A stretch of DNA of 64,000 nucleotides from the human T2T-CHM13v2.0 reference genome, Homo sapiens: assembly GCF_009914755.1 (NCBI RefSeq), contig NC_060936.1, one strand, 5' to 3'. The notes beneath the pieces were generated by a model. The model was not told the DNA's origin and did no database searches. It was given only the letters and a program-made list of their open reading frames with translations. The translations under genes were made by a program, and so were the position numbers. Of this stretch, positions 22,542 through 36,362 are shown piece by piece; the stretch's first letter is position 1, and each line of letters starts with the position of its first letter.

Positions 22542-23210
22542 TGGAATCATTCTTATCTACAACAATGTATAAATTCTAATTAACTAGTTAACAATATATT
22601 TTATACAAATGGGCAAAAAATATTTTGAACTTGATATCTCAATAGGTTAAGTCCTAAGTTTTCTACATTTAGATCATAGATTATAATAGTTGATTAGCCG
22701 CAAACAAGATATGTGAGGGAACGATTGGAAGTTCTGAAGGTTATTCTCTGGAAAAGATATTCTCCCTTAAAAGTCCTCTCTTACTAACATTTTAATTAGT
22801 CCAAGCTTGGGTATTTTAACTGAATTCAGGGGACCATGTTTTATATTTTTCCTAGATGAGCAATTCACAATGAATTAACACTTCTGCTTTTTTGGCTTAT
22901 ACATAAGTTTATTATGAAGTAAAGTCAAGATCTGAGGTAATTATCCAGAAATTTAGAGCCTTAGCTTTCTTAGACATATTCTTTTTTTTTTCTTTTTTTT
23001 TTTTTTTATTATACTTTAAGTTTTAGGGTACATGTGCACATTGTGCAGGTTAGATACATATGTATACATGTGCCATGCTGGTGTGCTGCACCCACTAACT
23101 CGTCATCTAGCATTAGGTATATCTCCCAATGCTATCCCTCCCCCGCCGCCACCCCACAACAGTCCCCAGAGTGTGATGTTCCCCTTCCTGTGTCCATGTG
23201 ATCTCATTGT

Positions 23211-26200
23211 TCACTTCCCACCTATGAGTGAGAATATGTGGTGTTTGGTTTTTTGTTCTTGCGATAGTTTACTGAGAATGATGATTTCCAATTTCATCCA
23301 TGTCCCTACAAAGGACATGAACTCATCATTTTTTATGGCTGCATAGTATTCCATGGTGTATATGTGCCACATTTTCTTCATCCAGTCTATCCTTGTTGGA
23401 CATTTGGGTTGGTTCCAAGTCTTTGCTATTCTGAATAATGCCGCAATGAACATACATGTGCATGTGTCTTTATATCAGCATGATTTATAGTCCTTTGGGT
23501 ATATACCCAGTAATGGGATGGCTGGGTCAAATGGTATTTCCAGTTCTAGATCCCTGAGGAATCGCCACACTGACTTCCACAATGGTTGAACTAGTTTACA
23601 GTCCCACCAACAGTGTCAAAGTGTTCCTATTTCTCCACATCCTCTCCAGCACCTGTTGTTTCCTGACTTTTTAATGATTGCCATTCTAACTGGTGTGAGA
23701 TGGTATCTTATTGTGGTTTGGATTTGCATTTCTCTGATGGCCAGTGATGATGAGCATTTTTTCATGTGTTTTTTGTCTGCATAAATGTCTTCTTTTGAGA
23801 AGTGTCTGTTCATGTCCCTCGCCCACTTTTTGATGGGGTTGTTTTTTTTTTTCTTGTAAATTTGTTGGAGTTCATTGTAGATTCGGGATATTAGCCCTTT
23901 GTCAGATGAGTAGGTTGTGAAAATTTTCTCCTATTTTGTAGGTTGCCTGTTCACTCTGATGGTAGTTTCTTTTGCTGTGCAGAAGCTCTTTAGTTTAATT
24001 AGATCCCATTTGTCAATTTTGGCTTTGGTTGCCATTGCTTTTGGTGTTTTGGACATGAAGTCCTTGCCCACGCCTATGTCCTGAATGGTAATGCCTAGGT
24101 TTTCTTCTAGGGTTTTTATGGTTTTAGGTCTAACGTTTAAGTCTTTAATCCATCTTGAATTGATTTTTGTATAAGGTGTAAGGAAGGGATCCAGTTTCAG
24201 CTTTCTACATATGGCTAGCCAGTTTTCCCAGCACCATTTATTAAATAGGGAATCCTTTCCCCATTGCTTGTTTTTCTCAGGTTTGTCAAAGATCAGATAG
24301 TTGTAGATATGCGGCGTTATTTCTGAGGGCTCTGTTCTGTTCCATTGATCTATATCTCTGTTTTGGTACCAGTACCATGTTGTTTTGGTTACTGTAGCCT
24401 TGTAGTATAGTTTGAAGTCAGGTAGTGTGATGCCTCCAGCTTTGTTCTTTTGGCTTAGGATTGACTTGGCAATGCGGGCTCTTTTTTGGTTCCATATGAA
24501 CTTTAAAGTAGTTTTTTCCAATTCTGTGAAGAAAGGCATTGGTAGCTTGATGGGGATGGCACTGAATCTGTAAATTACCTTGGGCAGTGTGGCCATTTTC
24601 ACGATATTGATTCTTCCTACCCATGAGCATGGAATGTTCTTCCATTTGTTTGTATCCTCTTTTATTTCCCTGAGCAGTGGTTTGTAGTTCTCCTTGAAGA
24701 GGTCCTTCACATCCCTTGTAAGTTGGATTCCTAGGTATTTTCTTCTCTTTGAAGCAATTGTGAATGGGAGTTCACTCATGATTTGGCTCTCTGTTTGTCT
24801 GTTGTTGGTGTATAAGAATGCTTGTGATTTTTGTACATTCATTTTTTATCCTGAGACTTTGCTGAAGTTGCTTATAGCTGAAGGAGATTTTGGGCTGAGA
24901 CAATGGGGTTTTCTAGATATACAATCATGTCGTCTGCAAACAGGGACAATTTGACTTCCTCTTTTCCTAATTGAATACCTTTTATTTCCTTCTCCTGCCT
25001 AATTGCCCTGGCCAGAACTTCCAACACTATGTTGAATAGGAGTGGTGAGAGAGGGTATCCCTGTCTTGTGCCAGTTTTCAAAGGGAATGCTTCCAGTTTT
25101 TGCTCATTCAGTATGATATTGGCTGTGGGTTTGTCATAGATAGCCCTTATTATTTTGAAATACGTCCCATCAATACCTAATTTATTGAGAGTTTTTAGCA
25201 TGAAGGGTTGTTGAATATTGTCAAAGGCTTTTTCTGCATCTATTGAGATAATCATGTGGTTTTTGTCTTTGGCTCTGTTTATATGCTGGATTACATTTAT
25301 TGATTTGCGTATATTGAACCAGCCTTGCATCCCAGGGATGAAGCCCACTTGATCATGGTGGATAAGCTTTTTGATGTGCTGCTGGATTCCGTTTGCCAGT
25401 ATTTTATTGAGGATTTTTGCATCAATGTTCATCAAGGATATTGGTCTAAAATTCTCTTTTTTGGTTGTGTCTCTGCCAGGCTTTGGTATCAAAATGATGC
25501 TGGCCTCATAAAATGAGTTAGGGAGGATTCCCTCTTTTTCTATTGATTGGAATACTTTCAGAAGGAATGGTACCAGTTCCTCCTTGTACCTCTGGTAGAA
25601 TTCGGCTGTGAATCCATCTGGTCCTGGACTCTTTTTGGTTGGAAAGCTATTGATTATTGCCACAATTTCAGCTCCTGTTATTGGTCTATTCAGAGATTCA
25701 ACTTCTTCCTGGTTTAGTCTTGGGAGAGTGTATGTGTCGAGGAATGTATCCATTTCTTCTAGATTTTCTAGTTTATTTGCGTAGAGGTGTTTGTAGTATT
25801 CCCTGATGGTAGTTTGTATTTCTGTGGGATCAGTGGTGATATCCCCTTTATCATTTTTTATTGCATCTATTTGATTCTTCTCTCTTTTTTTCTTTATTAG
25901 TCTTGCTAGTGGTCTATCAATTTTGTTGATCCTTTCAAAAAACCAGCTCCTGGATTCATTGATTTTTTGAAGGGTTTTTTGTGTCTCTATTTCCTTCAGT
26001 TCTGCTCTGATTTTAGTTATTTCTTGCCTTCTGCTAGCTTTTGAATGTGTTTGCTCTTGCTTTTCTAGTTCTTTTAATTGTGATGTTAGGGTGTCAATTT
26101 TGGATCTTTCCTGCTTTCTCTTGTGGGCATTTAGTGCTATAAATTTCCCTCTACACACTGCTTTGAATGCGTCCCAGAGATTCTGGTATGTTGTGTCTTT

Positions 26201-34000: not shown

Positions 34001-34912
34001 ACCATAAAAACCCTAGAAGAAAACCTAGGCATTACCATTCAGGACATAGGCGTGGGCAAGGACTTCATGTCCAAAACACCAAAAGCAATGGCAACCAAAG
34101 CCAAAATTGACAAATGGGATCTAATTAAACTAAAGAGCTTCTGCACAGCAAAAGAAACTACCATCAGAGTGAACAGGCAACCTGCAAAATAGGAGAAAAT
34201 TTTCACAACCTACTCATCTGACAAAGGGCTAATATCCCGAATCTACAATGAACTCCAACAAATTTACAAGAAAAAAAAAAACAACCCCATCAAAAAGTGG
34301 GCGAGGGACATGAACAGACACTTCTCAAAAGAAGACATTTATGCAGACAAAAAACACATGAAAAAATGCTCATCATCACTGGCCATCAGAGAAATGCAAA
34401 TCCAAACCACAATAAGATACCATCTCACACCAGTTAGAATGGCAATCATTAAAAAGTCAGGAAACAACAGGTGCTGGAGAGGATGTGGAGAAGTAGGAAC
34501 ACTTTTACACTGTTGGTGGGACTGTAAACTAGTTCAACCATTGTGGAAGTCAGTGTGGCGATTCCTCACGGATCTAGAACTAGAAATACCATTTGACCCA
34601 GCCATCCCATTACTGGGTATATACCCAAATGACTATAAATCATGCTGATATAAAGACACATGCACACGTATGTTTATTGTGGCATTATTCACAATAGCAA
34701 AGACTTGGAACCAACCCAAATGTCCAACAATGATAGACTGGATCAAGAAAATGTGGCACATATACACCATGGAATACTATGCAGCCATAAAAAATGATGA
34801 GTTCATGTCCTTTGTAGGGACATGGATGAAATTGGAAACCATCATTCTCAGTAAACTATCGCAAGAACAAAAAACCAAACACCGCATATTCTCACTCATA
34901 GGTGGGAATTGA
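31086..34912 (+). pseudogene. L1-B ORF2, disrupted
   Basis: Frameshift near 31695, catalytic FADD changed to FAVD (33182-33193), stops at 34190-34192 and 34646-34648. Confidence 0.95.
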
Positions 34913-36362
34913 ACAATGAGATCACATGGACACAGGAAGGGGAATATCACACTCTGGGGACTGTGGTGGGGAGGGGGGAGGGGGGAGGGATAGCATTGGG
35001 AGATATACCTAATGCTAGATGACGAGTTAGTGGGTGCAGCGCACCAGCATGGCACATGTATACATATGTAACTAACCTGCACAATGTGCACATGTACCCT
35101 AAAACTTAAAGTATAATTAAAAAATAATAATAATAAAAAAAAAAAAAACATGCTGGCCTCACAAATCCTTGACCTCTTGATTTTCCAATAAGTTCCAACT
35201 GTGTTTTTAAATATTGTTTCCGTCATCCTTTCCACTGGCCTCATCGTCACTTGATTTTATTTATTTTGCTATCTCAAAGGGGAAATACTCTTTTCTGACC
35301 ACAGCCTCTTATCTTTCCATTTCTTCCTTTCATTACCAAACACTTGGGCCTTCCCTTTCCTCATTATAGTTTCCCAATGTCCAGTTTGAATCGGATGGTC
35401 ATTTCTTTCTAGTTTAATTTCAATGGAACCTCAAATTGCTCTCCCTTCTTTCACCGAAACTGCAGCATAAAATATGTCAGGCTGAGATAACTTGTTGGCC
35501 AAGTTGTTTGGGTGGTGGCAGAATGAATGGCAATAATGCATTCTGTACACGATCCAAAGCTCTCACCAGGGGAGAAAGCATACAGTAGGGGAGATTTAAA
35601 AGCTACAGCTTGAAGTATGTATGTTCTGAAGACTTTGGTAGGGAGGGGAAGAGAGAGACTACTTGGGATCCTGTTCATTGGCTTGAATAAGGAATAAATA
35701 AAACCAGGAGGAACAGGCTGGGACACCATCAAGCAGACATGGACAAATATGGATCTGTAGCAGTAGATCACAATACCAGATAGTGACTTTATTGAAACCA
35801 AAATGCCTTGGCTCTTCAGTCTTCATTTCACAAATAAAAGAATTCCCAAGGGTGAAGTGGAGGATCTAATACACCACTCCATAGGTTGTTGATCTAGTAT
35901 TTTGAGGAACATACTAGGATGCATTACAATACCTCACCTTAAATGTATAGAATGGAGTAGCATCTCTTGATGGGATCTTCTCCAGCTGATTGTCTCCAGC
36001 ACCTCTGAGTCAGATCTGGTGAGATGTGCAGCTACTATAGAGTACATATGTGTACAGATGCACCACAGAGATTCAAACACGAGGGGAATGTCCTTGTTCA
36101 CAATGAGGGATTACCAGATCCTCTTCCCCAGTTTATAGCCAGGAATGTTGCCTTCCACTGGATCTTCCACACACTTCTGTTTCCACAGATCAATTTGTTC
36201 TTAAACCAATCATGACAGTTTAGTTGTATTAAAGCTTCATCATTTAAGAGTATGTATACTAATAAAATGTGAATGTGGAAAGAAATAAAATTGTTTTTAT
36301 GAGTAGTTAAATGCTTTGAAAAGATAGGTTGGTAAAAAATAATTCCTGATAAATTAGACATT

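What the first reader, a model, noticed from the sequence alone, without database searches (positions are those of the whole stretch)
22968..35160. Two independently inserted head-to-head full-length L1s that appear to be evolving in concert (a de novo ~12 kb palindrome)
Seen: each L1 has its own 15-bp TSD (tcttaga[c/t]atattct; aaacatgctggcctc) and its own tail, so this is not a duplication of one insertion. Yet both share many departures from the L1PA consensus as I recall it. ORF1: LMQLK, ELCEE, YSLRR, KMSRA. ORF2: HIRIL, KIKRW, LDSNT, HQVDL, NSFPT, LKVFQ, ANGIQ, KRRKY, RFSAI, YADKK, IQTTIR. They also share the same TAG stop (23931-23933 / 34190-34192), the same TGC>TGA stop (tgctgatata) and the same lengthened A-run after aaatttacaag. 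Established: L1 proteins act preferentially in cis, so an ORF2-nonsense element is a poor parent for new copies. Inference: the shared lesions arose after insertion and were copied between arms by gene conversion or repeated crossover, as in sex-chromosome palindromes, but here the arms are two transposon insertions.
Basis: partly seen in the sequence, partly recalled or inferred. Interest (0 to 1): 0.88.

Follow-up and report, generated by a model that had tools for sequence, protein, structure and literature searches.

The report
Neighbouring L1 insertions that swapped mutations
Two full-length L1 retrotransposons that landed head-to-head, plus a third 23 kb away, share rare mutations including stop codons, most likely because nearby copies copied short stretches from one another after insertion, a known process seen here in unusual detail.

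Summary
The anatomy is real. L1-A (22983-29021, minus) and L1-B (29140-35145, plus) are separate insertions with their own target-site duplications and tails, 118 bp apart.

The arms are only 97.5% identical. Over 4.76 kb, B is barely closer to A (94 differences) than to dispersed copies (98-124). The 5'UTRs next to the centre differ by 8%. This is not a homogenised palindrome.

Some "shared departures" are subfamily states (LMQLK, ELCEE, RFSAI). About 20 others, including TAG at codon 1036 and TGA at codon 1188, turned up together in no dispersed copy examined.

It shares a subset, including TGA1188.

Evidence for exchange after insertion:
- Sites that distinguish older from younger dispersed copies place C, A and B at three nested source stages.
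- Rare variants are shared as AB 9, BC 5, AC 1, ABC 6, which fits no single tree.
- One A-B tract (33744-34492) has 1 mismatch in about 750 bp (permutation P about 0.0003-0.001).

Best reading (about 0.65): short-tract non-allelic gene conversion among three local L1s. This is a new instance of a known process. Ape orthologues would decide it.

The parts
1..105 (-). 5' end of a third full-length L1 (L1-C). The whole element is G000:C12:41596050-41602105, which is window -5951..105 (6056 bp).
   Evidence: 97.1% identity to B over 5525 bp; element ends and length.
106..121 (.). Target-site duplication of L1-C, AATTGTTTATCTTTTA. The other copy lies just before its T-rich tail upstream of the window.
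22968..22982 (.). Target-site duplication of L1-A, tail side.
22983..29021 (-). L1-A, full length. ORF1 and ORF2 are both broken. ORF2 carries a 1-nt deletion, TAA at codon 731, TAG at 1036, TGA at 1141 and TGA at 1188, in the frame of an open dispersed copy.
29022..29036 (.). Target-site duplication of L1-A, 5' side (1 mismatch to the other copy).
29037..29124 (.). 88 bp of original target DNA between the two insertion sites. The L1 ends themselves are 118 bp apart.
29125..29139 (.). Target-site duplication of L1-B, 5' side.
29140..35145 (+). L1-B, full length, with four extra T at its 5' junction. ORF1 is open (338 aa, 30006-31022). ORF2 is broken by a 1-nt deletion near 31691, TAG at codon 1036 and TGA at codon 1188. 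A private deletion of about 36 bp lies in the 5'UTR near 29620.
35146..35160 (.). Target-site duplication of L1-B, tail side.
33744..34492 (+). Homogenised tract in L1-B. There is only 1 A-B mismatch (34184), while L1-C has 12 private changes in the same stretch. It holds the TAG stop and the A/B-only variants 34278A, 34305G and 34403C.
23631..24379 (-). The same tract in L1-A.
   Evidence: coordinates converted through repeat I1.
34190..34192 (+). TAG at ORF2 codon 1036. Shared by A (23931-23933) and B, absent from C.
34646..34648 (+). TGA at ORF2 codon 1188. Shared by A (23475-23477), B and C.
23616..23618 (-). TGA at ORF2 codon 1141 in A. Shared with C, absent from B. This variant is recurrent genome-wide, so it is weak evidence.

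Best explanation
Three full-length L1 elements inserted independently, at different times, within about 41 kb. C came from the oldest source stage, A from an intermediate stage and B from the youngest. B landed head-to-head 88 bp from A's target site.

After insertion all three decayed. Double-strand-break repair repeatedly used a neighbouring L1 as template. This is non-allelic gene conversion, with short or patchy tracts. Private mutations, including nonsense mutations, were copied from one copy into another.

Exchange was commonest between the adjacent inverted pair A and B and rarer with C. At least one A-B event of about 0.7 kb is recent enough to still be visible as a near-identical tract. 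The exchange is too sparse to homogenise the arms.

What is shown:
- the insertions are independent;
- rare variants are shared in a pattern that fits no tree;
- one tract is statistically significant;
- the variant combinations are absent from the dispersed copies examined.

What is inferred: the repair mechanism, the direction of transfer and the timing.
For: (1) Independence. There are three different target-site duplications and three different tails.

(2) Rarity of the shared variants.
- In variant-dense segments only A, B and sometimes C reach 99-100% identity. The best dispersed copies reach 97-99% (40 scored of 1624, 1881 and 632 candidates). In 30920-31270 no dispersed copy scores above 98% (40 scored of 2913).
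- The exact 27-mer with 32476C+32479T occurs in 5 places in the genome: the trio plus 2.
- None of the 9 informative TAG carriers (10 fetched of 21), 16 well-aligned TGA1188 carriers (19 fetched of 19), or 11 well-aligned 33561G/33587C carriers (12 fetched of 40) has the other trio variants.

(3) Different source stages. I compared older-type dispersed copies (12 and 5 copies) with 24 younger-type copies.
- C has the old state at all 13 informative diagnostic sites.
- A has the young state at 4 of them (33190, 34052, 34072, 35120).
- B has the young state at those 4 plus 9 more (31069, 31171, 31406, 31818, 33121, 33202, 34839, 34945, 34965).
- Variants shared across these stages but absent from later copies cannot have been inherited from the main lineage.

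(4) No tree fits. Counting states found in exactly these copies among 32-39 aligned sequences gives AB 9, BC 5 (one dubious), AC 1 and ABC 6. In contrast, 184 of 195 pairs of A, B or C with a dispersed copy share 0, 11 share 1, and none shares 2 or more.

(5) A tract. 19 of 20 consecutive sites polymorphic among A, B and C match between A and B over 33810-34469. Permutation P = 0.00025 for the whole element and 0.0012 without the 5'UTR. C carries 12 private changes in that stretch.

(6) Plausibility. The abstract of Harpak et al. (bioRxiv 10.1101/135152) gives a mean tract of 250 bp and 2.5e-7 conversions per nucleotide per generation for human duplicates. Passages of PMC6598467 state that non-allelic conversion among transposon copies is documented and is elevated for copies under 10 kb apart.
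Against: - A/B-only variants do not sit in longer A-B identity intervals than random positions (mean 177 against 175 bp, P = 0.47). Two of them sit in intervals of 8 and 13 bp.
- In 30631-31500, seven A/B-only variants interleave with three diagnostic differences and 17 private differences. This needs several tracts under about 100-230 bp, or one patchily repaired heteroduplex.
- Classes of shared sites are not significantly clustered along the element (P = 0.12).
- No significant tract links C to A. The only B-C signal is a cluster of A-private changes.
- Excluding the subfamily-level sites, the shared variants show no GC bias: by my count, 4 weak-to-strong against 9 strong-to-weak. The Harpak abstract reports a strong GC bias.
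- The A+C stop (TGA at codon 1141) occurs in 261 places genome-wide, so it may be a coincidence.
- The outgroup panels are small (24, 12 and 5 copies). The similarity searches scored only 40 candidates each.
- No ape orthologues or other human haplotypes could be examined.
Confidence: 0.65

Rival explanations
1. A, B and C descend from one rare, ORF2-defective side lineage, or from one another as parent and daughter. The lineage was mobilised in trans and re-inserted locally. The shared variants would then be inherited, not exchanged.
For: - Most sharing is compatible with a tree ((A,B),C): AB 9 and ABC 6 against BC 5 and AC 1.
- A/B-only variants are interleaved with private ones, as descent predicts.
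- All known carriers of the combination lie within about 41 kb.
Against: - The nested diagnostic states at 13 sites put the three copies at different stages of the main lineage. A side lineage would have to repeat 13 main-lineage changes.
- Four to five rare B+C variants contradict the tree. None of the 195 control pairs reaches 2.
- The A-B tract with 1 mismatch in about 750 bp is unexplained.
- The source would carry an ORF2 stop. L1 proteins preferentially mobilise their own mRNA (significance statement of PMC6789731, as shown in the listing).
- To my knowledge, from recall, no local re-insertion bias is known for L1.
Confidence: 0.15
2. There was no exchange at all. The shared variants are a mix of subfamily states not represented in my small panels and of recurrent mutation at hypermutable sites, perhaps regionally enhanced.
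For: - Several "private" variants turned out to be subfamily states: 33561G+33587C in 42 places, LMQLK and ELCEE, 32476C in 4 of 5 older-type copies.
- 34506G occurs in 261 places, in a listing that looks regionally clumped.
- Single shared variants each occur in 8-35 dispersed copies.
Against: - Combinations are what matter. Carriers of one variant never carried the others.
- The 27-mer holding two of the variants occurs in only 2 other places.
- Control pairs share 0 or 1 rare state, against 9, 5 and 6 within the trio.
- Most shared changes are transversions that are not at CpG sites.
Confidence: 0.08
3. Assembly or polishing artefact. Reads from one L1 were used to correct another, creating false sharing.
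For: None from my calls.
Against: - The copies differ by 2.5-3.6% with many private sites, indels and distinct flanks.
- Sharing is scattered base by base rather than in read-sized blocks.
- This could not be tested directly, because no reads are available.
Confidence: 0.03

Closest known systems
Non-allelic (interlocus) gene conversion between neighbouring transposon copies. Examples are neighbouring Alu elements and Y-chromosome LTRs, as reviewed in PMC6598467 (passages read).
   Same: Independent insertions of one family lie close together. They show mosaic sharing of mutations, disagreement between their real history and their sequence tree, and more sharing at shorter distance.
   Different: Here the copies are 6-kb full-length L1s, two of them in inverted orientation 118 bp apart. 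The transferred changes include nonsense mutations. My four literature searches turned up no L1 case resolved at this level. That is not proof that none exists.
Non-allelic gene conversion between human gene duplicates (Harpak et al., bioRxiv 10.1101/135152; abstract read).
   Same: Short tracts (mean 250 bp). The rate exceeds the point mutation rate. The effect on overall divergence is small, and diverging copies eventually escape.
   Different: That work reports a strong GC bias, and none is visible here. The paralogues here arose by retrotransposition, not duplication.
Sex-chromosome palindromes with gene conversion between arms (PMC11168930, passages read; Rozen et al. 2003 seen only in its reference list).
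   Same: Inverted arms with a short spacer, and at least one arm-to-arm conversion tract.
   Different: - The arms were not made by duplication.
- Arm identity is 97.5%, not the near-identity I recall for those palindromes.
- The centre-proximal part is the most diverged.
- There are no genes to preserve.
- A third copy outside the palindrome takes part.
L1 subfamily and source-lineage inheritance (the L1PA series). The subfamily names are from recall. No repeat library was available to assign them.
   Different: The remaining roughly 20 variants are found in combination only in the local trio.

Membership tests
Full-length LINE-1 insertion made by target-primed reverse transcription | Target-site duplications directly flanking the element. 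| tested here: met
   A matches 14 of 15, B 15 of 15, C 16 of 16.
Full-length LINE-1 insertion made by target-primed reverse transcription | A-rich 3' tail, and an element of about 6 kb starting at the canonical 5' end. | tested here: met
   Three distinct tails. Lengths are 6038, 6005 and 6056 bp (as sliced). The 5' ends align with each other. That this is the canonical 5' start is from recall.
Full-length LINE-1 insertion made by target-primed reverse transcription | ORF1 with L1 RNA-binding domains, and ORF2 with endonuclease and reverse transcriptase. | tested here: met
   Pfam hits: Transposase_22 (8e-63), Tnp_22_dsRBD, Tnp_22_trimer, Exo_endo_phos, RVT_1.
Non-allelic gene conversion between paralogous repeats | Copies share derived variants that other family members lack. 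| tested here: met
   The limits are small panels and only 40 scored candidates per similarity search.
Non-allelic gene conversion between paralogous repeats | A contiguous tract of excess identity that survives a permutation test. | tested here: met
   A-B over 33810-34469, P = 0.00025 and 0.0012. Not met for A-C (P = 0.26-0.53). B-C reaches P = 0.02-0.03, but that signal reflects a cluster of A-private changes.
Non-allelic gene conversion between paralogous repeats | Mosaic or incongruent relationships along the sequence. | tested here: met
   AB 9, BC 5, AC 1, ABC 6. Nested diagnostic states. A simple clustering test of the site classes was negative (P = 0.12).
Non-allelic gene conversion between paralogous repeats | GC-biased transmission. 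| tested here: not met
   Excluding the subfamily-level sites: 4 weak-to-strong, 9 strong-to-weak and 6 GC-neutral changes among the shared rare variants (my count). The numbers are small.
Non-allelic gene conversion between paralogous repeats | Orthologues in related species show lineage-specific homogenisation. | not testable with these tools
   No ape genomes or other human haplotypes are held. states that the genome has no relatives here.
Sex-chromosome-type palindrome evolving in concert | Inverted arms separated by a short spacer. | tested here: met
   Arms of about 6.0 kb with 118 bp between the L1 ends.
Sex-chromosome-type palindrome evolving in concert | Near-identical arms along their whole length. 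| tested here: not met
   97.5% identity overall. 40 mismatches in the first 500 bp next to the centre. There, at least 39 dispersed copies are closer to B than A is.
Sex-chromosome-type palindrome evolving in concert | Arms originate from an inverted duplication. | tested here: not met
   Each arm has its own target-site duplication and tail.

The most novel reading that the evidence does not exclude
The trio records local re-insertion of a non-autonomous L1. An ORF2-truncated element was mobilised in trans and its copies landed within about 30 kb of the parent at least twice. That would mean L1 can hop locally, and that defective L1s can found small local families.

The nested main-lineage states and the B+C sharing argue against this, but they rest on small panels.
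Probability: 0.07. Interest if true: 0.8.

Novelty: new member of a known kind. Interest (0 to 1): 0.42.

Why it matters
- L1 ages, subfamily assignments and source-daughter trees assume that each copy decays independently after insertion. This locus shows, base by base, that neighbouring full-length L1s can trade mutations, even inactivating ones. Shared lesions are therefore not safe evidence of a shared source, and nearby copies can look younger or more closely related than they are.
- It is a clean natural substrate for measuring short-tract non-allelic conversion. There are three dated, independent copies in two orientations at two distances.
- It shows that an inverted pair of transposons does not by itself become a homogenised palindrome.

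Tried and rejected
- **Simple longest-run and scored-fragment tests for A-B.** They gave P = 0.045 and 0.07. I replaced them with a log-odds scan.
- **Adjacency clustering of site classes.** P = 0.12, no support.
- **Identity-interval test around shared sites.** No support for A/B-only sites (P = 0.47). Borderline for ABC sites (P = 0.06).
- **Mutation spectrum as a discriminator.** Numbers too small to decide.
- **TGA at codon 1141 (A+C) as a third incompatible shared stop.** Downgraded after the variant was found in 261 places.
- **33561G and 33587C as private variants.** Rejected, because 40 dispersed carriers exist.
- **5'UTR type differences as proof of different sources.** Not decisive. 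The 36-bp gap is a private deletion in B.
- **Outgroups for 29141-30379.** Sharing in the 5'UTR and the first part of ORF1 is therefore unpolarised, apart from the similarity searches.
- **Supplementary files.** None were opened.

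
Full report
**Anatomy**

The region 22968-35160 is an inverted repeat whose arm segments are 91-99% complementary.
- The left arm is a full-length L1 on the minus strand (L1-A, 22983-29021).
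- The right arm is a full-length L1 on the plus strand (L1-B, 29140-35145).
- Pfam finds the three L1 ORF1 domains, the ORF2 endonuclease and the reverse transcriptase.
- A is flanked by tcttagaCatattct (22968-22982) and tcttagaTatattct (29022-29036).
- B is flanked by aaacatgctggcctc (29125-29139 and 35146-35160).
- The tails differ, and B has four extra T at its 5' junction.

These are two separate insertions whose 5' ends face each other across 118 bp. Of that, 88 bp is original target DNA.

**How alike are the arms?**
- A global alignment has 153 mismatches and 49 gap columns in 6046 columns, which is 97.5% identity. Mismatches per 500 columns run 39, 17, 6, 15, 13, 6, 5, 6, 17, 3, 5, 17, 4.
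- A search of the window's own assembly with 2.3 kb of B's ORF2 returned 40 scored hits of 7348 candidates, all at least 98% identical. A was not among them.
- I aligned the 24 usable hits out of 29 fetched; five that aligned poorly were dropped. B is 94 differences from A and 98-124 from the dispersed copies over about 4760 bp. A is 122-141 from the dispersed copies.
- Next to the palindrome centre, A and B differ at 40 of the first 500 positions. At least 39 dispersed copies are 96-97% identical to B there, and A is not in the best 40.

The arms as a whole are not homogenised. The sex-chromosome-palindrome picture does not hold.

**Are the shared oddities real and rare?**

So do the TAG stop, the tgctgatata stop and the 11-A run, which is a C>A substitution at 34278.

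Against the 24 dispersed copies, A and B agree with each other but not with the majority at 48 sites. About half of those states are in none of the 24.

Some of these are ordinary subfamily states:
- At least 11 dispersed copies lie within one mismatch of B across 30200-30400, which holds LMQLK and ELCEE.
- The pair 33561G+33587C (RFSAI) occurs in 42 places.
- 32258G, 32476C, 33982C, 34188A, 34256C and 34411A are the states of older-type copies.

The rest are not subfamily states:
- In the variant-dense segments 34170-34290, 34290-34430 and 32455-32755, only A, B and sometimes a third local copy reach 99-100% identity. The best dispersed copies reach 97-99%.
- In 30920-31270 no dispersed copy scores above 98%.
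- Each of these similarity searches scored only 40 candidates.

Exact searches are exhaustive:
- The TAG 26-mer occurs in 23 places and the TGA1188 27-mer in 22.
- None of the 9 informative TAG carriers (10 fetched of 21) has the other shared variants. The same holds for the 16 well-aligned TGA carriers (all 19 fetched) and the 11 well-aligned 33561G/33587C carriers (12 fetched of 40).
- The 27-mer with 32476C+32479T occurs in 5 places: the local copies plus two on another chromosome.

**A third element**

One of the best hits lay just upstream of the window. Fetching it showed a third full-length L1 on the minus strand. L1-C spans G000:C12:41596050-41602105, which is window -5951..105. It has its own 16-bp duplication AATTGTTTATCTTTTA and a distinct tail.

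Pairwise mismatches over about 6 kb are A-B 155, A-C 215 and B-C 200.

C shares 32479T, 32567G, 32732G, 33381G, 34238C, 34347A, 34414A and the TGA at codon 1188. It lacks the TAG stop, 34278A, 34403C and the seven A/B-only variants between 30631 and 31500.

In the frame of a dispersed copy with an open ORF2, the lesions are:

| Copy | ORF2 lesions |
|---|---|
| A | 1-nt deletion, TAA731, TAG1036, TGA1141, TGA1188 |
| B | 1-nt deletion, TAG1036, TGA1188 |
| C | TAA527, TGA1141, TGA1188 |

**Inheritance or exchange?**

Four results bear on this.

1. *Source stages.* At sites where older-type dispersed copies (12 and 5 copies) differ from the 24 younger-type copies, the three elements form a nested series.
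   - C is old at all 13 informative sites, A is young at 4, and B is young at those 4 plus 9 more.
   - One to three further sites do not fit the series (34205, 34630, 34680).
   - The three elements therefore left the main L1 lineage at different stages. Variants that they share but later copies lack cannot come from that lineage.
2. *Reticulate sharing.* Counting states present in exactly these copies among 32-39 aligned sequences gives AB 9, BC 5 (one at a poorly aligned site), AC 1 and ABC 6. Of 195 pairs made of A, B or C with a dispersed copy, 184 share none and 11 share one. Four of the 1231 pairs of dispersed copies reach 3-5, presumably because they are true relatives.
3. *A tract.* Between mismatches at 33743 and 34493, A and B differ once (34184), while C has 12 private changes. 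In a log-odds scan over the 280 sites polymorphic among the three, 19 of 20 consecutive sites match. Permutation P is 0.00025, or 0.0012 without the 5'UTR. This tract contains the TAG stop.
4. *Location.* All carriers of the combinations lie within about 41 kb.

**Results that do not fit neatly**
- A/B-only variants are not in longer identity intervals than random positions (P = 0.47). Two sit within 8 and 13 bp of private differences.
- In 30631-31500 they alternate with diagnostic and private differences. That calls for several very short tracts or one patchily repaired heteroduplex.
- The classes of shared sites are not significantly clustered (P = 0.12).
- There is no significant tract involving C.
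- Excluding the subfamily-level sites, there is no GC bias among the shared variants: 4 against 9 by my count.
- The A+C stop at codon 1141 occurs in 261 places, so it may be coincidental. The B+C variants 32260C and 32893T occur in 10 and 37 places.
- A simpler run test gave only P = 0.045.

**Conclusion**

The best-supported account is non-allelic gene conversion, in short or patchy tracts, among three independently inserted L1s. Exchange was most frequent between the adjacent inverted pair. It copied decay mutations, including nonsense codons, between copies without homogenising them.

The rate and tract length in the abstract of Harpak et al. are 2.5e-7 per nucleotide per generation and 250 bp. 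Over a few hundred thousand generations, which is my assumption, that gives a per-site conversion probability of several percent. This is the same order as the share of rare variants that are shared here. It is a rough inference only.

The review passages in PMC6598467 show that such exchange between transposon copies is established for Alu and LTR elements, and is stronger at short distance.

The subfamily labels I have in mind (L1PA2 to L1PA4) are from recall. No repeat library was available to test them.

**Novelty**

My literature searches found reviews and Alu, LTR and palindrome studies. They found no description of this locus or of an L1 pair like it. I read only abstracts and passages, and the library omits most subscription journals. 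I rate this a new, well-resolved instance of a known process.

Noticed in passing
window 27283-27363 (L1-A, ORF1): Seven A-private substitutions fall within 50 bp (B-equivalent 30776-30826), while B, C and the dispersed copies shown are identical there. This is a local mutation cluster of unknown cause.
   Followed up: partly
window 33178-33300 (L1-B): Six B-private changes, all transversions, lie in 122 bp around the A/B-shared 33283G. A also has private changes and a 1-nt deletion here. This could be a mutation shower linked to repair, which is speculation.
   Followed up: no
window 23603-23631 (L1-A), and 260 other places in the assembly: The T>G change that makes TGA at ORF2 codon 1141, inside a TTTTA motif, occurs in 261 L1 copies. 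The first 100 listed look regionally clumped, for example many on contig 2 at 205-222 Mb and on contig 3 at 67-75 and 84-90 Mb. It is either a small defective lineage or a hypermutable site.
   Followed up: partly
window 22000-22402 (masked 21642-22392): An older L1 3'-end fragment on the plus strand abuts the tail of L1-A. It is 83% complementary to A's 3' end (repeat I5).
   Followed up: no
window ~29620-29625 (L1-B 5'UTR): B lacks about 36 bp that A and C both have. This is a private deletion.
   Followed up: partly
loci L072-L090: Most of the 19 dispersed carriers of the TGA1188 variant have the same older-type states at the sites examined and are 5-8% from B. They might be a small old lineage rather than 19 independent hits.
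   Followed up: no
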